IMG/VR virus record: IMGVR_UViG_2541047830_000013
DNA: 38,621 nt
From: a virus
Lineage: Duplodnaviria > Heunggongvirae > Uroviricota > Caudoviricetes
Direction: 5' to 3' (one strand)
In this document: positions 5,117 to 38,621 of the stretch, piece after piece
Numbering within the stretch: the first letter of the stretch is position 1
Layout: every line of letters begins with the position of its first letter
Program-made: the position numbers and the translations under genes
Notes under the pieces: generated by a model
Seen by the model: only the letters and a program-made list of their open reading frames with translations
Database searches by the model: none
Told to the model about the DNA's origin: nothing

Positions 5117-7939
5117 ATGACGGCAGAGTACATCAGGGACTGGCAACAACCGCGCCACGCAGTGGGGCGTGAAGGAACGGGGATCCCCGCTCCTGAATCC
5201 GCGCTTTCCTCCTGGCTGGATGCCTACCGGGTAGAGAACGAGCACCGCCAGGAAATGGCTGATGCGGCGTTCTCCGCAACGCCGCTGGGCAACCTGATTA
5301 ATAAAAGCCTGGACGCACAGGAAAAACAGGACAAAACCATCACACTGGCAGGAGATGCCAGAAAACAGGCACGCGGCGCGGTGGATGAAGCCATGGCCTC
5401 GCTGCGCCTGCTGCCGTCCTATCTGCGCGATCCGCTTATTCGCCACCTCTCCTTCCTGCGCAAAAAACAGGAAGCCGATCGTCAGAAAGGCAAAAAGAGC
5501 TGGCAGGCTGAACGCTACGCGCGCGGAAACCTGCGCAAAATATTCGAACGTCTGGAGCGCACCGATCACCGCTGGCTGACACAGGGTTATCGCTCCCTTG
5601 CCGGACGCGAACGCCTGGACGATTTGCTTTACCTGCCGCAGCTCAACAAACACCAGATACAGACACTGGCCACCATGACGGCGGCGATGTTCAGCAGCAC
5701 CTTCGAAAAACTCTGCGATGGCTTTGGCGCGACCGATGGCGAACTGACCATGGATGTAACGCTGAAGGCGTATCAGATGCTGGCCCGCATGGCGTTACAC
5801 CTGCACGCCATGCCTCCACATTATGACGCACTGACAACAGACAAAGACCAGAGGAACGAACCGGACACGGAGCTGCTGCCGGGCGCAATCCTTCGCCTGA
5901 CCTGTGCAGAATGGTGGAAACGCAAACTGTGGCTGTTACGTTGCGAGTGGAGAGAAGAACAACTCCGCGCCGCCTGTCTGGTTTCCAGAAAAACATCGCC
6001 CTATCTGAGCCAGGACGCGTTAAGCGAGTTTCGCGCACAGCGCGAGAAAACACGCGATTTCCTGAAAAGTTTCATGCTGGAAAATGAAGACGGGTTCACG
6101 ATTGATCTCGAGACGGTGTATTACGCGGGAGTAAGTAACCCGGTTCACCGTAAGGCAGAAATGATGGCCACCATGAAGGGGCTGGAACTTCTGGCCGAAG
6201 CCCGTGGCGACAAAGCGGTGTTTCTGACTGTCACCTGCCCGTCAAAATACCACGCCACAACAGAGAACGGTCATCCGAATCCCAAATGGAACGGGGCCAC
6301 CATGCGCGACTCCAGCGATTACCTGGTTAACACGTTTTTTGCGGCGGTCCGCAAAAAACTGAACCGCGACGGTCTTCGCTGGTATGGCATCCGCACGGTG
6401 GAGCCTCACCATGACGGCACCGTGCACTGGCATATGATGGTCTTTGCTCATCCGGAAGAAATCGACAGCATCGTGGCCATCACCCGCGATATTGCCATTC
6501 AGGAAGACCGCCACGAGCTGGGCAATGATATTACTCCGCGCTTTAAGGCGGAGTATGTCGACGGCTCAAAAGGCACACCAACCAGCTATATCGCGACCTA
6601 CATCGGAAAGAACCTGGACAGCCGCGCCGTGGATGGCATCGACCCGAAAACGGGCAAGCCACGCGTTGACCACGAAACCGGAAAATCAATGGCCGAGAGT
6701 GTGGAGCGCGCCATCGGCTGGGCGCGCCTTCATCGGGTCCGCCAGTTCCAGTTCTTTGGCATCCCCTCCCGTCAGGTGTGGCGTGAACTGCGCCGCCTTG
6801 CCAGCCAGATGGCACGCAACCCGGAAGGCCCGCAACGACTGAAAGATGACGCAATGGATGCGGTACTCGCTGCCGCCGATGCCGGGTGTTTTGCCACCTA
6901 CATTGAAAAACAGGGCGGCGTACTTGTTCCACGCAAAGACTACCTGATTCGCACCGCCTACGACCTCGCAGATGAGCTGAATGATTACGGCGAACAGAGC
7001 GTACAGATTTACGGGATCTGGTCACCACTCATCGGGGAATCCTCCCGTGTGTGCACGCATCCGGATAACTGGAAACTGGTAAGACGTAAACCGGAAACGG
7101 AAGACAGCGCCCGCGAAAATGGTTTTGACCTTCAGGGCGGCCCTGCCGCCCCTTGGACTCGTGGCAATAACTGTCCCCGTGTACAGGAAACGGACAACAA
7201 CGGGACAGAACAGCCGGAAGAACGGCCAGCACCGTGGCCGCAGCTCCCTGACGGCGTTGAAGTGAACGAATGGATGCGCTCACTGAAACGACACGAACGC
7301 CGGGCGCTGATGCGTTCGCTTCGTGACAAACAGGCAAAAAACAGCAGCGATGAAATGCAGAGCTGGACACAGAGCCGCAAACAGCAGCGGCCTTTGCCTG
7401 ATAACCACGAATTACTCGCTAAAGAATGGCGGGAGTCTGCTGAATCTCTCGGCCTGCATATCGGTGAACAACAGATGCAGCACCTGTTACGGGGCGGCAG
7501 TCTGTACGTTGACGGCAGCATCATTGCACCGCAGGGATTTGAAATTGTACGCAAACCGGATACCCGCCCGGACAGCCGAATCACGCAGCTCTGGCAGCGC
7601 CTGAGCCGTAATCACGGCGTAAGCAGCACGGAGATCCGCCATAACCCGGTCTCCAGCTATCTGGCACAGCTCGGGGCATCAGACCCCGAAGCCGCCGCAC
7701 GCCTGGCATCCACACTTCAGCAGGTCCAGAACACCATGAAAACACCCGTTACCGTGCTTTCTGACATGCTGCGCGCCATTCGTGACGCAGAGCACGCACA
7801 GAGAATCAGAGAAACCACTGAACGCGCCCGCCGCAAAGCAAACCTGCTGAGGGCTGGCCTGACCAGTGGAAACAAAAAACAGACAGAAACGGGATTCACA
7901 AATCCCGTAAATGAGCAAAAAACGCGCCGCGATATATGA
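5117..7939 (+). CDS. A: Rolling-circle replication initiator (P2 gpA-like, HUH endonuclease)
   Basis: 940 aa; HUH-type motif VHWHMMVF (HWH codons 6425-6433); paired catalytic tyrosines YIATY (codons 6587-6589 and 6599-6601); position after the early operon. Confidence 0.9.
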   Translation: MTAEYIRDWQQPRHAVGREGTGIPAPESALSSWLDAYRVENEHRQEMADAAFSATPLGNLINKSLDAQEKQDKTITLAGDARKQARGAVDEAMASLRLLPSYLRDPLIRHLSFLRKKQEADRQKGKKSWQAERYARGNLRKIFERLERTDHRWLTQGYRSLAGRERLDDLLYLPQLNKHQIQTLATMTAAMFSSTFEKLCDGFGATDGELTMDVTLKAYQMLARMALHLHAMPPHYDALTTDKDQRNEPDTELLPGAILRLTCAEWWKRKLWLLRCEWREEQLRAACLVSRKTSPYLSQDALSEFRAQREKTRDFLKSFMLENEDGFTIDLETVYYAGVSNPVHRKAEMMATMKGLELLAEARGDKAVFLTVTCPSKYHATTENGHPNPKWNGATMRDSSDYLVNTFFAAVRKKLNRDGLRWYGIRTVEPHHDGTVHWHMMVFAHPEEIDSIVAITRDIAIQEDRHELGNDITPRFKAEYVDGSKGTPTSYIATYIGKNLDSRAVDGIDPKTGKPRVDHETGKSMAESVERAIGWARLHRVRQFQFFGIPSRQVWRELRRLASQMARNPEGPQRLKDDAMDAVLAAADAGCFATYIEKQGGVLVPRKDYLIRTAYDLADELNDYGEQSVQIYGIWSPLIGESSRVCTHPDNWKLVRRKPETEDSARENGFDLQGGPAAPWTRGNNCPRVQETDNNGTEQPEERPAPWPQLPDGVEVNEWMRSLKRHERRALMRSLRDKQAKNSSDEMQSWTQSRKQQRPLPDNHELLAKEWRESAESLGLHIGEQQMQHLLRGGSLYVDGSIIAPQGFEIVRKPDTRPDSRITQLWQRLSRNHGVSSTEIRHNPVSSYLAQLGASDPEAAARLASTLQQVQNTMKTPVTVLSDMLRAIRDAEHAQRIRETTERARRKANLLRAGLTSGNKKQTETGFTNPVNEQKTRRDI

Positions 7940-7984
7940 AGCGCGCACAAAACAGGCGAAAGCGGGATTTAAAAATCCCGTAAA
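7890..7984. promoter_or_regulatory. Two 22-bp direct repeats, each an inverted repeat (cgggattcacaaatcccgtaaa / cgggatttaaaaatcccgtaaa); candidate parC-like centromere or operator
   Basis: Copies at 7890-7911 and 7963-7984, 73 bp apart, immediately upstream of the ParM-like gene; a 12-bp perfect palindrome ggttaattaacc follows at 7986-7997. Confidence 0.4.
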
Positions 7985-23686: not shown

Positions 23687-26311
23687 ATGAGCACGAAATT
23701 TAAAACCGTTATCACTACTGCCGGAGCCGCAAAGCTGGCAGCCGCCACTGTCCCCGGCGGGAAAAAAGTAAACCTGTCTGCAATGGCTGTGGGTGACGGT
23801 AATGGCAAATTGCCGGTGCCGGATGCCGGTCAGACGAAACTGGTGCATGAGGTCTGGCGTCACGCTCTGAATAAAGTCAGCGTGGATAACAAGAATAAAA
23901 ACTATATCGTGGCTGAACTGGTTGTTCCGCCAGAAGTGGGCGGCTTCTGGATGCGTGAGCTTGGTCTGTATGATGATGCCGGAACACTGATTGCGGTATC
24001 CAACATGGCAGAAAGCTATAAGCCAGAACTGGCTGAAGGCTCCGGGCGTGCGCAGACCTGCCGCATGGTTATTATTCTCAGCAACGTGGCGTCCGTTGAG
24101 CTGAGTATTGATGCCAGCACAGTGATGGCGACGCAGGATTACGTCGATGACAAAATCGCAGAGCATGAGCAGTCCCGCCGCCATCCTGACGCCACGCTGA
24201 CAGAAAAAGGTTTTACTCAGTTAAGCAGTGCAACAAACAGCACCAGTGAAAAGCTGGCAGCAACGCCAAAGGCAGTAAAAGCAGCCTATGACAATGCTGA
24301 GAAACGTCTGCAGAAAGACCAGAACGGTGGCGATATTCCAGATAAGGGCGCTTTTCTGGACAATATTGGCGTTACCAGCCTGACGTTTATGAAACACAAT
24401 GGAATGATTCCAACCACTGACAATCTTGATTCCTATGGCCCAGAAGAAAAATATCTTGGAACGTGGTCATGTCCGTCACAATCCACTGCAAAACCAGAGT
24501 CTGGTTACCCTGAAGATAAAGGCAATGGGGTTCTGGAAGTATTCAATGCTGGTCGCTTTCACTGCACACAACGCTACACCACCCGAACCGGTAATATTTA
24601 CATTCGGATGCTTGATGCAGAATGGAACCCTGTCAGTCCTGTATGGAGTGCATGGAGAGCTATTACAAGCGGGACTCGCCCATTAAGCACGTCAATTGAC
24701 CTGAATTCTTTAGGTGGTGCGGAACACCTGGGAATATGGCGCAATAGCAGTACATCAATAGCCTCATTTGACCGTCATTTCCCGGAGGAAGGGAGTTTTG
24801 GACAGGGTATTCTGGAAGTCTTTGAAGGCGGTCTGTATGGGAGGATGCAACGTTATACCACCCGTAGTGGGACTATGTACATTCGCGGACTGACAGCCTC
24901 ATGGGATGCAGAAAATCCACAATGGGAGGACTGGATTGCTGTTGGGTATCAGTCCACGGGATGGACTTATTCAGGGGATCTTGATGACCTTTTAAAGCCT
25001 GGTATTTATAGCGTCACGAAACAGGCCACAAATGCACCTGTCACCGACTCTAAAGATCTTGCTGTTGGCTCAATAGTTGAGGTGAAAAAACGTTGTGATA
25101 TTGAATCGTATATCCAGACATATACGACTGTTTCAGCAACGGATGCCTATAAAAACCGGACATTTCAGCGAACCCGCGCCAGCGGTGAAACTGACTGGGG
25201 GGAATGGGCGGAAGTATACAACTCAAAATCATTACTCACTAAATTAGGTGTCGGCGGTGTTACCGACAGGTTATCCAGTCTGGACTGGCAGACCTACGAC
25301 TTTATACCGGGCAGCATGATAACTGTCAGGCTTTCAGATATGACCAATATTCCCGATGGGATGGAATGGGGCGTCATTGATACTAACCTGATAAATATCA
25401 CTGTTGGCCCCAGTGAAGGCGGAGGTGTCGCCCGTTCAATGCAGGTATGGCGCAGCACTTCAAACAAAACCAACTATCGTTTTTTTACAGTCCGCTTATA
25501 TGGCAATCCTGGGGAGCGTAGCTTCAATATTCGTCGGCTACCAATTATCGACGAAGCCCAGACATGGGCAGCGAAACAGACATTCAGCGGTGGTCTTTCA
25601 GGTGAACTGTCCGGCAATGCGGCTACAGCAACAAAGCTGAAAACGGCAAGGACAATTAACGGCGTAAAATTTGACGGCTCGGCAAATATTGAAGCGTTTC
25701 CGCCTGGTGTTCCGCTGCCGTGGCCATCAGATACACCACCTGCAGGCTATGCAATCATGCAGGGGCAGACGTTTGATAAGGCAGCATATCCGAAACTGGC
25801 TATAGCCTATCCTTCTGGTGTTATTCCTGATATGCGCGGCTGGACAATCAAGGGCAAACCCGCCAGTGGGCGTGCCGTATTGTCACAGGAACAGGACGGG
25901 ATTAAATCGCATACTCACAGTGCCAGTGCGTCAAATACGGATTTGGGAACGAAAACAACCAGTTCGTTTGATTACGGGACGAAGACAGTCAGTACGTTTA
26001 ACTACGGAACAAAAACCACTAATACCACTGGTAACCATACACATACCATTTACAGAGGGAATGCCAATACTAATGGTGAAACCGGTAAAACAGGCTTTGA
26101 CAACCCATCGTTTAATGGCACATCAGGAGCTGCCGGGAATCATGCCCACACGGTAGATATTGGTGCACATAATCATACGGTTGGTATTGGTGCACATTCA
26201 CACACGGTTGCTATTGGCTCACACGGGCACTCTATTACCGTTAATGCTACAGGTAATACAGAAAACACCGTCAAAAACATCGCATTTAACTATATTGTGA
26301 GGCTTGCATAA
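23687..26311 (+). CDS. H: Tail fibre protein (P2 gpH-like N-terminus, divergent C-terminal tip with HxH repeats)
   Basis: 874 aa; C-terminus [33 protein letters not shown] encoded partly by tandem 27-bp repeats at 26161-26214. Confidence 0.85.
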
Positions 26312-33870: not shown

Positions 33871-35040
33871 CTAATATTGAGAAAGATAATCAGCGACTCC
33901 ATCTGCAGGGTTTCGCCCACCAGTATAAATTGTGCCTAATTCTTGAGGTGTAACATATGTTGTAGGCCAAATGGCCATATTTTTAAAATAGTTATCTATT
34001 TTTATTCTTTGAAGTTCTTTAAAGAGATAATCTTCTAAGTCATTTCTTTTTAGACAGTTAACATAATAAGCAGCCGCACTTGCTACTATATCTACAATTT
34101 GTAATTGAGGATACTCTTGTGATGAATGGAATGTCAAAGAACGAGCTTTAATTGGCAATTCAAATTTTCTTCGATCATAACCATATGCCTCCGTAATTTT
34201 TGATATATCCATAAATTTATCAAAAATATCTTTCTTCTCTGTAATAGCTTTGGAATCGTCATGCTTAATATAAAAACCATTAGGGTATAATTTACCCCAT
34301 TCTACACAGTGTCTAAAGAGGCTTGGTATAGATGGATCTAATGTGCTTTTCTCAACACCTTCCAATATATCATCAATATCGCTTCTGGTAATACTAATTC
34401 TGTTTATTATATCTGTGAATATCTTATCACTTGAGCATATCTTTAACTCATCAATTACCCTGTAAAATTCATCAATTGACTCAGTCGATTGGCTTCTGAT
34501 CATATTCATAAAACACTGATACATTACCTCTGTTTTTTCCTCCCCACAGAAAGCAGGGAAACAGAAATAGTAAACATTAGACAGAGCTAGATTCTGTCCA
34601 TTTATATAAAGATCTATTCCTCTATTAGAGCACCACGTCTCGATCAAAATATCAACAATCTTTGCTGTTAGCATGTATTTTTTATCGACCAAGTATATTT
34701 TAACATTCTCTTCATTGACATATTTGCTTTCAAGAAGCCTAATGATGCCATCCTGACCAGATTTTCTACGTCTAAGAGTTTTAAAGTGGGCTTCTGTTGG
34801 AGACTTGCTTCCGGTTAGTTCTAATGCCTTAAGCGCATCCTGTTTACTAATACTACTTGAACTTAAGGTAAAAACAGGTTGCAATGGATCGAGTAAATTT
34901 CCGCCAGTATTACCTGATTCATCAAAAAATATATCAGGCTTTATATACAACATTTTATTTATCTTTGCCGCTAAGTTTCTTTTTTTCTCATTTTCTCGCT
35001 TAATTTTATTATCTCGCCTACGTTGACTATTCTTTCCCAT
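33871..35040 (-). CDS. AT-rich accessory gene, DUF3800-like protein (389 aa)
   Basis: ATG 35040 with GAGG RBS; N-terminal FFDESGNTG and C-terminal LQIVDIVASAA resemble DUF3800 family motifs as I recall them; much more AT-rich than the flanking D and ogr. Confidence 0.6.
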   Translation of the reverse strand: MGKNSQRRRDNKIKRENEKKRNLAAKINKMLYIKPDIFFDESGNTGGNLLDPLQPVFTLSSSSISKQDALKALELTGSKSPTEAHFKTLRRRKSGQDGIIRLLESKYVNEENVKIYLVDKKYMLTAKIVDILIETWCSNRGIDLYINGQNLALSNVYYFCFPAFCGEEKTEVMYQCFMNMIRSQSTESIDEFYRVIDELKICSSDKIFTDIINRISITRSDIDDILEGVEKSTLDPSIPSLFRHCVEWGKLYPNGFYIKHDDSKAITEKKDIFDKFMDISKITEAYGYDRRKFELPIKARSLTFHSSQEYPQLQIVDIVASAAAYYVNCLKRNDLEDYLFKELQRIKIDNYFKNMAIWPTTYVTPQELGTIYTGGRNPADGVADYLSQY

Positions 35041-35723: not shown

Positions 35724-35864
35724 ATGTCGCAAAAATCGCTTACGGCCATCACGTTCTGCGTGACGGTAATCCTCATCATCTGGATGCTGCACGGTTCGCT
35801 GTGTGAAATACGGATGAGCTTCTGGGGAGCGGAGTTTGCGGCGTTCTTACAGTGTAAGCAGTAA
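35724..35864 (+). CDS. Hok/Gef-family type I toxin (46 aa)
   Basis: MSQKSLTAITFCVTVILIIWMLHGSLCEIRMSFWGAEFAAFLQCKQ: one TM helix then SLCE...AAFL.C, the Hok-family pattern; AGGAG 8 nt upstream; below ORF-track cutoff. Confidence 0.7.
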   Translation: MSQKSLTAITFCVTVILIIWMLHGSLCEIRMSFWGAEFAAFLQCKQ

Positions 35865-35874
35865 GGAAACCGCG

Positions 35875-35894
35875 ACGGGGGAGTAATCCCCCGT
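35875..35894 (+). other. Stable hairpin just 3' of the hok-like ORF (acggggga-gtaa-tcccccgt)
   Basis: 8-bp GC-rich stem; consistent with a structured hok mRNA 3' end. Confidence 0.45.
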
Positions 35895-36126
35895 CAATCG
35901 GTTGCTAGGGTAAGGTCGATAAGGCACCCTATCTCACAGCTCTAAATGCCAAAATTCCATGAAACTGTGGGATTTTTGCATCACATACTGATACAGACCA
36001 GCCCTTCTATATGCCTCACTCTATACCAGCTAATCAATTGACACTTATCAATAAAAATAAATCTGATAAAATCAAAATGTTTTGTAACAAATATCAACTC
36101 GTATTAATCCAAAGGAGGCGGATTAC

Positions 36127-36459
36127 ATGGCATTAATCAAATGTCCTGAATGCCAGAAAGAGGTGAGCGATTCAGCATTGTATTGCCCTGCTTGTGGTAA
36201 ACAACTGCAAAAACTTAAGCGTTCATTTTTTGGACGGATCATTAAGTGGGTTTTTATATTATTTAATATTTTTATGATCTATACGCTTTTAGTTGGACTA
36301 GGAGGCACTAGTGAAATAATAAATAATGCCACATCCGATGCCGAAAAAGCCGGTGCAGTTATTGGTACAGGCTTAGGTTTAATTACCATTGGAAGCTTAT
36401 GGGTTATTGGCGATATCATTATCGGAATTTTAGTATTTCTTACTAAACCAAAGGGATAA
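36127..36459 (+). CDS. Zinc-ribbon membrane protein (110 aa)
   Basis: N-terminal CPEC-x13-CPAC zinc ribbon then two hydrophobic helices; strong AAAGGAGG RBS; AT-rich. Confidence 0.6.
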   Translation: MALIKCPECQKEVSDSALYCPACGKQLQKLKRSFFGRIIKWVFILFNIFMIYTLLVGLGGTSEIINNATSDAEKAGAVIGTGLGLITIGSLWVIGDIIIGILVFLTKPKG

Positions 36460-36463
36460 TAAA

Positions 36464-37357
36464 ATGAAAAATATAATTTTTTCTATAGGTGCATCATTTA
36501 TATCAATTAGTGTACTGCCTGTTCACGCAGCAACTGAACATAAGAACTTCAATGCAGTACTCCAGTGCCGAGCAATAGAAAATAATAAAGACAGACTTTC
36601 TTGTTACGATAAGTCAATACAACCGACTCGAACGAAAGTTGCTGAAAAATTCGAAAGCAGAGATCAATGCCCTGATGAGAAAGATGATGATAGACGTTTA
36701 TCTTGTTATGATCGTTTCTTTTCTCCAACATTTACTCCATCTGTAAACTCAAAATCTAAAACGGAAAAGCCAGTAACAACAGAGGCTCAGCAACCAAATC
36801 TTTCTGAGATATCTAAATGTCGTGCAGAAAATGATAAAGAAGCTAGACTAAACTGCTACGATAAACTATTCCCACAGGATAAAATCGTTCAAGCTGAATC
36901 AAAATTAGAGAAAGCCACAGATGTAGGAAAATGGCACACATCCATTACTACATCGCCAATTGATGATTCGAAAAATGTAATTTTATCGTTAGAAAGTGAT
37001 GATTATATCAGAACTCCATTTGGAGAAGCGGTTACTCCTACTCTTTTTATAGCTTGCCGAGAAAAGAAAACCGAAGTATTTCTTAGTTGGGATGTATATT
37101 TAGGCCTTGAACAAACCAGCATGCTTTATCGCCTTGATAAACAGAAAGCAGTTGAGCGAAACTGGCTAGTATCTACAGATACAAAGGCTGTTTTTTATAA
37201 AGGTAATGACATTGATTTCATCCGAAAACTAGCCAACTCAAGCAAAATGTATACAAAAATAACGCCTTATAATGAGAGCCCCGTAAGTGCAACTTTCAAT
37301 TTAAACGGCCTGTCAAACGCGCTAAAACCGCTTCAAGCTGCTTGTAACTGGAAATAG
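36464..37357 (+). CDS. Secreted protein with three Cys-containing repeats plus a C-terminal domain (297 aa)
   Basis: Signal peptide ending VHA-A; three repeats of the form C-x8-RLSCYD-x-F/I (QCRAIENNKDRLSCYDK, QCPDEKDDDRRLSCYDR, KCRAENDKEARLNCYDK); 5 nt after the upstream gene. Confidence 0.6.
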   Translation: MKNIIFSIGASFISISVLPVHAATEHKNFNAVLQCRAIENNKDRLSCYDKSIQPTRTKVAEKFESRDQCPDEKDDDRRLSCYDRFFSPTFTPSVNSKSKTEKPVTTEAQQPNLSEISKCRAENDKEARLNCYDKLFPQDKIVQAESKLEKATDVGKWHTSITTSPIDDSKNVILSLESDDYIRTPFGEAVTPTLFIACREKKTEVFLSWDVYLGLEQTSMLYRLDKQKAVERNWLVSTDTKAVFYKGNDIDFIRKLANSSKMYTKITPYNESPVSATFNLNGLSNALKPLQAACNWK

Positions 37358-37440: not shown

Positions 37441-37459
37441 GTGGTCACTGCGTGGACAC
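37441..37459. repeat. attR core, right copy of the 19-bp direct repeat
   Basis: gtggtcactgcgtggacac; single mismatch to 11-29; marks the phage/host junction. Confidence 0.6.
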
Positions 37460-37625: not shown

Positions 37626-38621
37626 ATGATACAACCTATTTCCGGCCCTCCTCCTGGGCAACCACCAGGCCAGGGAGATAACCTGCCGTCTGGCGCGGGC
37701 AATCAGCCTTTATCCAGTCAGCAACGTACTTCGCTGGAAAGCTTAATGACGAAAGTGACCTCACTGACGCAACAACAAAGAGCAGAACTGTGGGCGGGTA
37801 TCAGGCACGATATTGGTCTGTCGGGAGATTCACCGCTGCTTTCGCGTCACTTCCCTGCCGCTGAGCACAATCTGGCGCAACGTCTGCTGGCCGCGCAAAA
37901 AAGCCATTCTGCCCGCCAGCTTTTAGCGCAATTAGGGGAGTATTTACGTCTGGGGAATAATCGTCAGGCGGTCACGGATTATATCCGTCATAACTTTGGT
38001 CAGACGCCGCTGAATCAGCTCTCACCGGAGCAATTAAAGACCATTCTCACCCTGTTGCAGGAAGGGAAGATGGTTATTCCGCAACCTCAGCAGCGCGAGG
38101 CGACCGACCGTCCGTTATTACCGGCGGAGCACAATGCGCTCAAACAGCTGGTGACCAAACTTGCGGCGGCAACGGGAGAACCCAGCAAGCAGATCTGGCA
38201 ATCGATGCTGGAACTTTCCGGGGTGAAAGATGGCGAGTTAATTCCAGCGAAACTGTTTAACCATCTGGTGACCTGGCTACAGGCGCGTCAGACGCTAAGC
38301 CAGCAAAATACGCCGACGCTGGAATCACTCCAGATGGCGCTAAAACAACCTTTAGATGCCAGTGAACTGGCGGCGTTATCGGCATATATCCAGCAAAAAT
38401 ATGGCCTTTCTGCGCAATCATCGCTTTCTTCTGCCCAGGCCGAGGATATTCTTAATCAGCTTTATCAACGGCGGGTTAAAGGGATTGAGCCGCGTGATAT
38501 GCAACCGCTGCTTAATCCTTTTCCACCGATGATGGACACGTTGCAAAATATGGCAACGCGTCCCGCGCTGTGGATACTGTTAGTCGCGATTATCCTGATG
38601 CTGGTCTGGCTGGTTCGTTAG
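37626..38621 (+). CDS. flk: Host gene, probable Flk (flagellar regulator, C-terminal membrane anchor)
   Basis: N-terminus MIQPISGPPPGQPPGQG and hydrophobic C-terminal tail ALWILLVAIILMLVWLV match my recollection of enterobacterial Flk; typical host GC content; outside the att repeat. Confidence 0.55.
   Translation: MIQPISGPPPGQPPGQGDNLPSGAGNQPLSSQQRTSLESLMTKVTSLTQQQRAELWAGIRHDIGLSGDSPLLSRHFPAAEHNLAQRLLAAQKSHSARQLLAQLGEYLRLGNNRQAVTDYIRHNFGQTPLNQLSPEQLKTILTLLQEGKMVIPQPQQREATDRPLLPAEHNALKQLVTKLAAATGEPSKQIWQSMLELSGVKDGELIPAKLFNHLVTWLQARQTLSQQNTPTLESLQMALKQPLDASELAALSAYIQQKYGLSAQSSLSSAQAEDILNQLYQRRVKGIEPRDMQPLLNPFPPMMDTLQNMATRPALWILLVAIILMLVWLVR

What the first reader, a model, noticed from the sequence alone, without database searches (positions are those of the whole stretch)
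36127..37357. Zinc-ribbon membrane protein plus secreted Cys-repeat protein wedged between ogr/hok and attR
P2 has essentially nothing between ogr and attP. Here there are two tightly linked AT-rich genes: a 110-aa protein with an N-terminal CPEC...CPAC zinc ribbon and two TM helices, and a 297-aa exported protein with three copies of a C-x8-RL(S/N)CYD motif and a roughly 150-aa C-terminal domain. I do not recognise the repeat or the pairing as a described system. A cytoplasmic zinc ribbon on a membrane anchor coupled to a periplasmic partner suggests signalling or superinfection exclusion.
Basis: partly seen in the sequence, partly recalled or inferred. Interest (0 to 1): 0.65.

Follow-up and report, generated by a model that had tools for sequence, protein, structure and literature searches.

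The report
Prophage two-gene envelope cargo module
Two real, tightly linked cargo genes at the end of a P2-family prophage encode an inner-membrane zinc-ribbon protein distantly related to the E. coli division/stress protein DrpB and a periplasmic VasI/TagO-family protein. Both families are already catalogued but of unknown function, and gene fusions elsewhere show the two parts belong together.

Summary
ORFs 36127-36459 (110 aa) and 36464-37357 (297 aa) are real, AT-rich, 4 nt apart and under purifying selection. They lie between ogr/hok and attR of a P88-like (Xuanwuvirus) prophage.

The claim that they are unrecognisable is not correct. The 297-aa protein is a VasI/TagO-family protein (Pfam PF11319). 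The C-x8-RLxCYD motif is that family's N-terminal helical hairpin, here present three times. The C-terminal domain has an IalB-like beta-sandwich fold. RefSeq already names the pair, about 4% of complete E. coli genomes carry it, and phage PhiSM's copy was listed as cargo in 2019. No function is known, and no T6SS genes are nearby.

Three results are new here:
- The 2-TM part of the 110-aa protein is a remote homologue of DrpB/YedR. An almost invariant Thr aligns with DrpB T89, which is needed for Rcs activation.
- The pair is conserved at this slot in P2-like prophages of several genera.
- Single-chain fusions exist of the DrpB-like module with a VasI domain, so the pair is a functional unit.

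The likely role is a lysogen-expressed envelope module for exclusion or envelope signalling. That mechanism is inferred, not shown.

The parts
36045..36072 (+). Predicted sigma-70 promoter of the module: TTATCA, 16-nt spacer, extended -10 TGaTAAAAT
   Evidence: The consensus scan finds it. The block is conserved upstream of the zinc-ribbon gene in E. coli, Enterobacter and Klebsiella, although the coding regions are only about 70% identical. Function was not tested.
36071..36092 (+). Conserved operator-like element ATCAAAATGTTTTGTAACAAAT, containing the palindrome CAAAATGTTTTG, at or just after the -10
   Evidence: It is conserved across genera. It occurs once in the window and in 0 of 100 shuffles. 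The regulator is unknown.
36127..36459 (+). Gene 1: 110-aa inner-membrane protein, a zinc ribbon joined to a DrpB-like 2-TM hairpin. An AGGAGG ribosome-binding site lies at 36114-36119.
   Evidence: ORF. phrog_6586 matches at E 1.7e-41. The family alignments are A1 and A7. The family has 332 50%-identity clusters at E<=1e-10.
36136..36207 (+). Cytoplasmic C4 zinc ribbon (aa 4-27, CPEC...CPAC)
   Evidence: PF13240 scores 31.8 bits against a cutoff of 25. C6, C20 and C23 are invariant and C9 is at least 90% conserved.
36208..36453 (+). DrpB/YedR-like module (aa 28-109): RSxxGK juxtamembrane motif, TM1, a periplasmic loop of about 20 aa with SDAExAGA, TM2 and a C-terminal T-(K/R)-P-K motif
   Evidence: NF038392 hits 21 of 23 family members end to end, best E 7e-7. 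hhalign of A7 against DrpB gives probability 85%, E 5.8e-6. T106 aligns with DrpB T89.
36464..37357 (+). Gene 2: 297-aa exported VasI/TagO-family protein
   Evidence: PF11319 scores 88.6 bits against a cutoff of 26.5. TIGR03360 scores 75.4 bits, below its cutoff of 124.2. phrog_1848 matches. RefSeq names it TagO.
36464..36529 (+). Predicted Sec signal peptide (aa 1-22, cleavage VHA|A). There is no lipobox.
   Evidence: Read from the sequence and from a hydropathy profile. No dedicated signal-peptide predictor was available.
36551..36616 (+). Cys hairpin 1 (aa 30-51, C35...C47)
   Evidence: AF2 predicts helix-turn-helix H30-35/H41-51. The segment matches the hairpin positions of a profile built from single-hairpin VasI-like proteins.
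36659..36721 (+). Cys hairpin 2 (aa 66-86, C70...C82)
   Evidence: AF2 predicts H66-71/H75-86. A second sub-match to the hairpin positions is found. This hairpin is absent from the 250-aa and 210-aa homologues.
36800..36868 (+). Cys hairpin 3 (aa 113-135, C119...C131), the universal VasI N-terminal motif
   Evidence: C119, R128, L129, C131 and D133 are invariant in 43 homologues. The segment aligns to the start of the Pfam VasI model.
36926..37354 (+). IalB-like beta-sandwich domain (aa 155-297) with a conserved Cys pair, C198 and C294
37386..37429 (.). Perfect 20-bp inverted repeat with a GAAA loop and a GC-rich core followed by a U-rich arm: a likely bidirectional terminator that closes the module
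   Evidence: Folding gives dG -35.4 kcal/mol and z -11.7, with 0 of 200 shuffles as stable.
37441..37459 (.). attR core, with the direct repeat of attL at 11-29
   Evidence: Repeat family D5, 18 of 19 bases identical, at the two ends of the window. Host flk starts at 37626.

Best explanation
This is a self-contained cargo operon (a 'moron') at the ogr-attR end of a P88-like, P2-family prophage. It has its own promoter, two translationally coupled genes and a strong terminator.

Gene 1 makes a small inner-membrane protein. A cytoplasmic C4 zinc ribbon is joined to a 2-TM hairpin that is a remote homologue of E. coli DrpB (YedR). Gene 2 makes a Sec-exported periplasmic protein of the VasI/TagO family. 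It has three probably disulfide-stapled helical hairpins on flexible linkers, followed by an IalB-like beta-sandwich.

The two proteins form one envelope unit, in which the membrane protein is the anchor or transducer and the VasI-fold protein is its periplasmic head. I think the unit is expressed in the lysogen and changes the envelope to the prophage's benefit.

The mechanism I favour is this. Like multicopy DrpB, the membrane module perturbs or activates envelope signalling (in Enterobacterales, the Rcs relay through RcsC), with the periplasmic head tuning or triggering it. The resulting surface change (capsule) or a local block hinders adsorption or penetration by other phages, tailocins or T6SS. 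The module is not part of a T6SS.

My estimates for each step are:
- Family assignments: about 0.9.
- The two proteins work together: about 0.8.
- Expressed in the lysogen: about 0.6.
- Protective or exclusion role: about 0.4.
- Acts specifically through Rcs: about 0.2.

The overall confidence given (0.4) refers to the statement as a whole up to 'protective envelope module'.
For: SHOWN
- Gene anatomy and composition.
- VasI family membership and hairpin triplication.
- IalB-like fold.
- DrpB homology of the 2-TM module.
- The Thr aligned with DrpB T89 is at least 90% conserved in 76 diverse representatives.
- The pair occupies the same ogr-proximal slot in P2-like prophages of E. coli, Salmonella, Brenneria and Klebsiella, with 45-60% identity in gene 2.
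- In 80 viral contigs, 61 carry intact pairs with a 4-nt gap or an overlap, and 6 more have the zinc-ribbon gene intact with gene 2 disrupted.
- Both genes are under purifying selection.
- The promoter block is conserved, and a terminator follows ogr in the relatives. A terminator follows gene 2.
- Fusion proteins exist. P0277 is a DrpB-like 2-TM module, a third TM and a VasI domain in one verified ORF. P0268, P0242 and P0219 are the same module fused to the other neighbour domains.
- In non-P2 temperate elements, VasI-like genes sit between an XRE-type HTH gene that I read as the repressor and the integrase, a typical lysogen-expressed position.

FROM THE LITERATURE
- Multicopy DrpB activates Rcs without RcsF, through the RcsC periplasmic domain, and T89A abolishes this (PMC11709261).
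- Small hydrophobic proteins that activate Rcs independently of RcsF block phage adsorption through capsule (PMC12557735).
- About 90% of C. rodentium prophage CDS are transcribed under standard growth (PMC6456863).

INFERRED
- Docking of the hairpins on the membrane protein.
- Expression in the lysogen.
- The exclusion phenotype.
Against: - No experiment or expression data exist for this module.
- DrpB's Rcs effect is an overexpression phenotype and may reflect general membrane stress. It also induces Psp.
- The zinc-ribbon/DrpB-like family extends to Haemophilus, Alphaproteobacteria, Deltaproteobacteria and spirochaetes, which to my knowledge lack Rcs. Rcs therefore cannot be the ancestral target.
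- The family scores below the DrpB curated cutoff (about 21 bits against 50). A narrow profile did not retrieve DrpB from a background of 6,574 ORFs.
- Each gene also occurs alone.
- In another E. coli prophage, the VasI-like gene is convergent with a different zinc-ribbon/TM2 protein, so co-transcription is not obligatory.
- Gene 2 is frameshifted in some lineages while gene 1 stays intact.
- PADLOC finds no known defence system.
- The papers on P2 defence hotspots do not list this slot.
Confidence: 0.4

Rival explanations
1. Direct superinfection exclusion without signalling. The periplasmic VasI-fold protein, held at the inner membrane by the zinc-ribbon protein, physically binds or blocks an incoming tail tip, tail lysozyme or DNA-injection channel. 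This would be analogous to T4 Sp and Imm. It could also block a T6SS spike.
For: The genes lie at the att-proximal or immunity-region position in several prophage types. The architecture is a periplasmic protein plus a small inner-membrane protein. The fold is used as a periplasmic scaffold in a flagellar ring structure, and VasI is linked to the T6SS, a contractile machine related to P2 tails (Pfam name). Proteins with this fold are also found in lytic T4-like phages.
Against: There is no homology to any characterised exclusion protein. No binding target is known. Family members also sit in ordinary chromosomal contexts.
Confidence: 0.2
2. T6SS accessory factor, as the RefSeq name and Magaziner et al. 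imply. The prophage supplies an extra TagO/VasI that assists or modulates the host's own type VI secretion system and thereby affects virulence or competition.
For: PF11319 matches well above its threshold. RefSeq names the gene TagO. PhiSM ORF1 is listed as a 'T6SS VasI family protein, virulence' (PMC6456863).
Against: The protein scores below the T6SS-equivalog cutoff of TIGR03360 (75 against 124 bits). I recognised no T6SS genes in the window or in the related loci I examined. Homologues are prophage-borne or stand alone. TagO's role in T6SS is itself listed as unknown (PMC13584744). The usual partner is a DrpB-like membrane protein, not a Tss protein.
Confidence: 0.1
3. Two unrelated morons that merely share a permissive insertion slot, with no functional coupling between them.
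For: Each gene occurs alone elsewhere. The zinc-ribbon gene survives when the VasI-like gene is frameshifted. The zinc-ribbon family pairs with other partners in 21 loci.
Against: The 4-nt gap or overlap is kept across 45-100% identity and several genera. There is a single conserved promoter and terminator. Single-chain fusions join the same two modules. The other partner domains are also found fused to the 2-TM module.
Confidence: 0.1
4. A cell-division or peptidoglycan-remodelling modulator. The DrpB-like protein goes to the septal ring, as DrpB does, and brings the VasI-fold protein to sites of septal wall synthesis. This would serve the phage (for example timing of lysis or host growth control) rather than exclusion.
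For: DrpB homology. [quoted passage not shown] The family is found well beyond the Enterobacterales, where Rcs is described.
Against: DrpB is non-essential and has weak phenotypes. Nothing links VasI or IalB folds to the divisome. The position and independent promoter fit a lysogen-expressed gene better than a lytic-cycle gene.
Confidence: 0.12
5. An abortive-infection type defence. The periplasmic protein senses envelope damage by an incoming phage, and the small 2-TM protein then depolarises the membrane.
For: The protein is a small 2-TM protein and the module is prophage cargo. P2-like phages are rich in defence cargo (PMC9122126, PMC13586616).
Against: There is no PADLOC hit. The 2-TM family is stably kept alone in chromosomes (Pantoea) and as fusions in housekeeping contexts, which argues against a toxic effector. 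This slot is not among the hotspots named in the passages I retrieved from those two papers.
Confidence: 0.06

Closest known systems
VasI / TagO (Pfam PF11319; TIGR03360), T6SS-associated protein typified by V. cholerae VCA0118
   Same: Both have a signal peptide, the C-x8-RLxCYD helical hairpin and a C-terminal beta-sandwich with a conserved Cys pair. The Pfam score is 88.6 bits.
   Different: The hairpin is present three times instead of once. The protein scores below the T6SS-equivalog cutoff. It is encoded in a prophage with no T6SS genes nearby, and it is paired with a DrpB-like membrane protein. The function of TagO is itself unknown.
PhiSM ORF1 / P88-type (Xuanwuvirus) cargo genes; RefSeq WP_001504485 and WP_001173929
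   Same: This is the same module, 91-99.9% identical at the DNA level and in the same position next to attR. It was noted as cargo by Magaziner et al. 2019.
   Different: Nothing differs in sequence. The literature mentions only the VasI-like gene, calls it a T6SS or virulence factor without any test, and does not mention the partner gene.
DrpB (YedR), E. coli septal-ring protein and multicopy Rcs activator (NCBIfam NF038392)
   Same: Both have a 2-TM hairpin with N-in/C-in topology, a periplasmic loop of about 20 aa, an RSxxGK motif before TM1 and a T-R-P-(K/R) motif after TM2. The conserved Thr aligns with T89, which is required for Rcs activation.
   Different: Here the module carries an N-terminal zinc ribbon and has a dedicated periplasmic partner. 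It scores about 21 bits against a cutoff of 50. DrpB is chromosomal, stands alone and is restricted to a few enteric genera.
IalB (invasion-associated locus B, PF06776; PDB 3DTD)
   Different: Sequence identity is only 19%, and the Pfam IalB score is 20.4 bits, below the cutoff of 22.1. IalB has no Cys hairpins. Its own mechanism is unknown.
T4 Imm and Sp superinfection-exclusion proteins (analogy from general knowledge, not tested here)
   Same: [quoted passage not shown]
   Different: There is no sequence or fold relationship. The T4 genes are unlinked and belong to a lytic phage. The comparison is a functional analogy only.

Membership tests
VasI/TagO (PF11319) | Match to the Pfam model above the gathering score | tested here: met
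   The score is 88.6 bits against a cutoff of 26.5. Residues 118-296 cover model positions 1-184 of 184, and two extra short matches come from hairpins 1 and 2.
VasI/TagO (PF11319) | Architecture: signal peptide, C-x8-RLxCYD hairpin, beta-sandwich with a conserved Cys pair | tested here: met
   C119, R128, L129, C131, D133 and C198 are invariant, and C294 is conserved in at least 90% of 43 homologues. The AF2 model agrees. The difference is that the hairpin is tripled.
T6SS-associated VasI equivalog (TIGR03360) | Score above NCBI's curated equivalog cutoff | tested here: not met
   The score is 75.4 bits against a cutoff of 124.2.
T6SS-associated VasI equivalog (TIGR03360) | Genetic linkage to T6SS core genes | tested here: not met
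   The whole window is a P2-like prophage bounded by att sites. Related loci are prophages or stand-alone genes. I recognised no tss, hcp or vgrG cluster in any of them.
T6SS-associated VasI equivalog (TIGR03360) | A role in T6SS assembly or firing | not testable with these tools
   This needs genetics. The role of TagO is listed as unknown in a 2026 review (PMC13584744).
IalB (PF06776) | Pfam match above the gathering score | tested here: not met
DrpB/YedR (NF038392) | Score above the curated equivalog cutoff | tested here: not met
   The score is 20.8 bits against a cutoff of 50. The protein is a homologous domain, not an equivalog.
DrpB/YedR (NF038392) | End-to-end similarity of the 2-TM module, including the TMH2-distal motif | tested here: met
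   21 of 23 members hit model positions 2-85 of 86, best E 7e-7. Distant members also hit. hhalign gives probability 85%, E 5.8e-6. T106 aligns with T89.
DrpB/YedR (NF038392) | Septal localisation, ftsEX suppression and Rcs activation | not testable with these tools
   These properties are known for DrpB only (PMC7648144, PMC11709261).
Zinc ribbon (PF13240) | Four Cys in two CxxC knuckles, and a Pfam match | tested here: met
   The score is 31.8 bits against a cutoff of 25. The Cys residues are conserved in the family. Metal binding itself was not tested.
Known anti-phage defence systems (PADLOC-DB v2) | Match to any defence-system protein model | tested here: not met
   Neither protein gives a hit at E<=1.
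Lysozyme-inhibitor families (Ivy, MliC/PliC, PliG, LprI) | Pfam or NCBIfam match | tested here: not met
   None of these families appears for either protein at E<=1. There are only faint hints: an LprI gene lies next to a Photobacterium VasI-like gene, and two fusion proteins have sub-threshold LprI tails.
Phage moron (autonomous cargo unit) | Own promoter and terminator, atypical composition, absent from related phages at the same slot | tested here: met
   GC is 33-39% against about 53%. The promoter is conserved and a terminator follows. P2 itself has nothing between ogr and attP (general knowledge). The slot contents vary among relatives. Promoter and terminator activity are predicted, not measured.

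The most novel reading that the evidence does not exclude
The DrpB-like 2-TM module plus an exchangeable periplasmic 'head' (VasI fold, OB fold or others), often with a cytoplasmic zinc ribbon, is an unrecognised and widespread two-part envelope signalling device. In this reading, P2-family phages carry a version that switches on envelope stress signalling (Rcs and capsule in enterics) to exclude other phages, tailocins and T6SS attack. E. coli DrpB would be a 'headless' chromosomal relative. T6SS VasI/TagO would work through a similar membrane partner, which would give the first functional handle on both orphan proteins.
Probability: 0.15. Interest if true: 0.7.

Novelty: new variant of a known kind. 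Interest (0 to 1): 0.45.

Why it matters
Both proteins belong to catalogued families that nobody understands.
- VasI/TagO is listed as 'unknown' among T6SS accessory factors.
- DrpB is a puzzling small protein that touches both the divisome and the Rcs stress relay.

This work shows three things. A VasI-fold protein is habitually coupled, and sometimes fused, to a DrpB-like membrane module. The module is common cargo of P2-family prophages, carried by about 4% of complete E. coli genomes. The Thr needed for DrpB's Rcs activation is the most conserved residue of the family.

Together these give simple, testable experiments: Rcs reporters, phage and T6SS challenge, and interaction tests. They could assign a function to three orphan families at once. 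The results also show that the RefSeq label 'type VI secretion system-associated protein TagO' on these prophage genes is homology-only and probably misleading.

If nothing comes of the experiments, this is one more prophage moron of unknown function.

Tried and rejected
- A literature search for the motif strings RLACYD, LACYD and RLxCYD found only unrelated words.
- A profile search with the isolated hairpin failed. The query was first rejected for an E-value above the limit and then for being too short. After extension to 41 aa it collected only 13 candidates and 2 trivial hits.
- A PDB sequence search with the 297-aa protein gave only chance hits.
- The AFDB50 fold library was not available.
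- PADLOC gave no hits.
- PHROGs gave only families of unknown function.
- I tested whether the other common neighbour of the zinc-ribbon gene (zinc ribbon, one TM and a periplasmic domain; alignment A6) is a disguised VasI domain. It is not (hhalign probability 0.15%), and it has no PDB relative.
- I tested whether the zinc-ribbon/TM2 protein next to the VasI-like gene in a second E. coli prophage is DrpB-like. It is not.
- A narrow 23-sequence profile of the 2-TM part did not retrieve DrpB from 6,574 background ORFs. Only broader profiles did (P 4e-5; hhalign 85%).
- P0282's C-terminal domain could not be shown to be VasI-like (probability 9%).
- LprI (lysozyme-inhibitor) tails in the fusion proteins are below threshold.
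- Pfam PF28000, precomputed for some zinc-ribbon homologues, is not in the local Pfam copy, so I could not identify it.
- I looked for a known regulator site in the conserved palindrome by eye (Fur, FNR, CRP, LexA, CpxR, PhoP) and found no convincing match.
Full report
**1. The observation**

Both ORFs exist exactly as described. ORF 36127-36459 (+) encodes 110 aa and ORF 36464-37357 (+) encodes 297 aa. They are separated by 4 nt.

The region has 33-39% GC, against about 52-55% for the neighbouring phage genes. Upstream lie an Ogr/Delta zinc-finger gene and a Hok/Gef gene. A 19-nt direct repeat at 11-29 and 37441-37459 marks attL and attR. The host gene flk starts at 37626. The pair is therefore the last cargo before attR of a complete P2-family prophage.

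The 110-aa protein passes the Pfam zinc-ribbon threshold. It is predicted as a small ribbon followed by a helical hairpin, H34-66 and H71-105. The charge distribution indicates N-in/C-in topology.

The 297-aa protein has a signal-like N-terminus ending VHA|A. It carries three exact C-x8-RL(S/N)CYD motifs and a C-terminal domain predicted with high confidence (pLDDT above 90 for residues 155-297).

The genes are real. Homologues from 45% to 99% identity keep both frames. dN/dS is 0.08-0.13 in deep comparisons and 0.12-0.66 in shallow ones.

**2. What the 297-aa protein is**

It is a VasI/TagO-family protein. Pfam PF11319 scores 88.6 bits against a cutoff of 26.5 and covers the whole model.

The 'unknown repeat' is the family's own N-terminal signature. 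In an alignment of 43 homologues the third copy (C119...RLxCYD) is invariant. Copies 1 and 2 are insertions found only in the 250-aa and 297-aa forms. A profile built from single-hairpin homologues matches copies 1 and 2 at the hairpin positions. AF2 models each copy as a helix-turn-helix, with the two Cys placed on the two helices, separated by disordered linkers.

The protein is not a T6SS equivalog, because TIGR03360 scores 75 bits against a cutoff of 124. I recognised no T6SS genes in the window or in the related loci I examined.

**3. What is already known**

The module is in RefSeq as 'zinc ribbon domain-containing protein' plus 'type VI secretion system-associated protein TagO'. Of 5,426 complete E. 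coli genomes, 237-240 carry it, and 9 copies are on plasmids. It is present in phages Shae_phiSM, PhiR44_2, 500465-2 and P88_4B11, which belong to Xuanwuvirus.

Magaziner et al. 2019 listed PhiSM ORF1 as a 'T6SS VasI family protein' cargo gene with a presumed virulence role, without any experiment (PMC6456863). A 2026 review lists the function of TagO/VasI as unknown (PMC13584744). Both proteins fall in PHROG families of unknown function. Neither matches PADLOC. In keyword searches, the two papers on P2 defence hotspots mention neither these proteins nor gpD or attR, and the passages retrieved from the 2026 paper name other hotspots.

**4. What the 110-aa protein is (new here)**

The NCBIfam model for the E. 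coli cell-division protein DrpB (YedR) hits the 2-TM part of the window protein (E 3.6e-4, model positions 2-84 of 86). It hits 21 of 23 family members, with a best E of 7e-7. It also hits members from Haemophilus, Shinella, a SAR11 genome and Rhodobium. No other membrane-protein model competes.

In the reverse direction, a narrow profile failed. A 92-sequence profile gave P = 4e-5. A 76-representative alignment gave hhalign probability 85% and E 5.8e-6 over DrpB residues 10-95.

The shared features are the topology, an RSxxGK motif before TM1, a periplasmic loop of about 20 aa, and a T-R/K-P-K/R motif after TM2. The Thr of that last motif (T106) is at least 90% conserved across the 76 representatives, and it aligns with DrpB T89.

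[quoted passage not shown] In multicopy it activates the Rcs phosphorelay without RcsF, through the periplasmic domain of RcsC. T89A was the only point mutant that lost this activity (PMC11709261).

The family is sizeable, with 332 50%-identity clusters at E<=1e-10. About a third of the best 150 lack the ribbon and so have DrpB's own architecture.

**5. Are the two genes a unit?**

Evidence that they are:
- The pair sits at the same slot after gpD and ogr in P2-like prophages of Salmonella, Brenneria and two Klebsiella species. Gene 2 is only 45-60% identical there, so the pair is old cargo and not a recent insertion.
- Of 80 viral contigs that encode a VasI-like protein, 61 have the zinc-ribbon gene immediately upstream with a 4-nt gap or an overlap. 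Another 6 have it upstream of a disrupted VasI-like gene. Thirteen show no zinc-ribbon gene, and in 2 of those the gene lies at the contig edge, so what is upstream is unknown.
- A promoter-like block, TT(A/G)TCA-16-TGaTAAAAT, followed by the palindrome CAAAATGTTTTG, is conserved upstream in E. coli, Enterobacter and Klebsiella. In those relatives it directly follows the ogr terminator.
- A perfect 20-bp hairpin (dG -35.4, z -11.7) follows gene 2.
- Most tellingly, single polypeptides join the same parts. P0277 is one verified ORF made of a DrpB-like 2-TM module, a third TM and a VasI domain (Pfam 38 bits; hhalign probability 99.5%).
- The other frequent neighbour of the zinc-ribbon gene is a protein with a zinc ribbon, one TM and a periplasmic domain, found in 21 of 55 genomic loci. 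That domain is likewise found fused to the 2-TM module in P0268 (probability 99.9%). OB-fold (tRNA_anti-like) heads occur in P0242 and P0219.

Evidence against an obligatory unit:
- VasI-like genes occur alone after ogr (L108, L110, L133). In non-P2 temperate elements they lie between an XRE-type HTH gene (probably the repressor) and the integrase.
- The zinc-ribbon gene occurs alone in Pantoea (between cueR and copA) and in HP1-like Haemophilus prophages.
- In another E. coli P2-like prophage, a 250-aa VasI-like gene is convergent with a different zinc-ribbon/TM2 protein.

My reading is that the DrpB-like module is a membrane anchor or transducer that works with exchangeable periplasmic heads, and the VasI fold is one such head. 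In the fusion the head is tied on by a third TM and lacks Cys hairpins. In the two-gene form the hairpins may provide the docking. That last point is inference.

**6. How it most likely works**

The anatomy, the family assignments and the coupling are shown. The rest is inferred.

The autonomous promoter and terminator, the att-proximal position and the repressor-integrase position of the relatives are typical of genes expressed from the prophage. A general statement that about 90% of C. rodentium prophage CDS are transcribed is weak support.

Given DrpB's behaviour, the favoured mechanism is that the membrane protein perturbs or activates envelope signalling, which in enterics means Rcs through RcsC, with the periplasmic head modulating it. 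Small hydrophobic proteins that activate Rcs independently of RcsF are enough to block phage adsorption through colanic-acid capsule (PMC12557735).

The main caveats are these:
- DrpB's effect is an overexpression phenotype.
- The family exists in many bacteria outside the Enterobacterales, which to my knowledge lack Rcs, so the ancestral role must be more general.
- There are no expression or phenotype data.

The rival explanations are direct physical exclusion, T6SS accessory factor, divisome or peptidoglycan modulation, two unrelated morons, and abortive infection. They are weighed in their own section.

**7. Verdict**

By sequence this is an already catalogued prophage cargo module. By function it is uncharacterised. 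Three features make it a new variant of a known kind rather than something categorically new: the tripled hairpin, the DrpB homology of the partner, and the fusion evidence.

Interest is moderate (0.45). The result is not very surprising, but it connects three orphan families and suggests cheap decisive experiments.

Noticed in passing
window 33871-35040 (-): A second AT-rich moron (32-35% GC) lies between gpD and ogr. It encodes a 389-aa DUF3800 protein (PF12686, E 3.5e-10; phrog_12991, E 7e-187) with no PADLOC hit. It is absent from otherwise near-identical prophages such as E. coli 2015C-3163, where ogr directly follows gpD.
   Followed up: partly
window 35724-35864 (+), with a hairpin at 35873-35896: A Hok/Gef-family toxin ORF (46 aa, PF01848, E 3.7e-7) lies between ogr and the module. 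It is followed by a terminator-like hairpin that the scan calls on the opposite strand. No antisense RNA was looked for.
   Followed up: no
window 36071-36092: A 22-nt block containing the palindrome CAAAATGTTTTG sits at the start of the module's transcript. It is better conserved across E. coli, Enterobacter and Klebsiella than the coding sequence, which suggests an unknown regulator.
   Followed up: partly
L148 (E. coli ETEC-2265 plasmid NZ_CP023347); L078, L085-L089: A remnant consisting of ogr, hok, the zinc-ribbon gene and a split VasI-like gene sits on a 142-kb ETEC plasmid beside a group II intron and IS110. The same frameshifted VasI-like allele, about 93% identical, recurs in chromosomal prophages with the zinc-ribbon gene intact.
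   Followed up: partly
L142-L144 (Pantoea): A 70%-identical zinc-ribbon/DrpB-like gene stands alone between cueR and copA in many Pantoea genomes. In one genome a P2-like prophage (int, cox, gpA) begins right next to it, so the gene may be a leftover of an old prophage end.
   Followed up: no
L145-L147 (E. coli, prophage beside tamB/ytfP): A different P2-like prophage has, in order, ogr, hok and a 98-aa protein with a zinc ribbon and a TM2 domain (PF05154). That gene converges on a 250-aa two-hairpin VasI-like gene. This is an analogous membrane partner from an unrelated 2-TM family.
   Followed up: partly
L140 (Photobacterium phosphoreum); P0268, P0242: A stand-alone chromosomal VasI-like gene is followed by a gene with an LprI (lysozyme-inhibitor, PF07007) domain. 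Two fusions of the DrpB-like module end in sub-threshold LprI-like tails (17.7 and 12.3 bits against a cutoff of 22). This is a faint hint of a theme of protection against wall hydrolases.
   Followed up: partly
L004 (DEQA01000038.1, 'Planococcaceae bacterium UBA3378' MAG): A 4.2-kb contig binned to a Gram-positive MAG carries the module at 95-99% protein identity to E. coli, together with P2-like gpD and ogr. This is almost certainly misbinning or contamination.
   Followed up: no
window 26147-26227 and 7873-7984: There are three tandem 27-nt units (70-100% identical) at 26147-26227, and two 39-nt copies 73 nt apart at 7873-7984 that contain a GGGATTnnnAAATCCC hairpin. Their host genes were not examined.
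   Followed up: no
P0013, P0020, P0031, P0032, P0041, P0043 (zinc-ribbon homologues): The protein database's precomputed annotation gives these homologues a Pfam family, PF28000, that is missing from the local Pfam copy. A Pfam entry for this family, or for its ribbon, may therefore already exist.
   Followed up: partly
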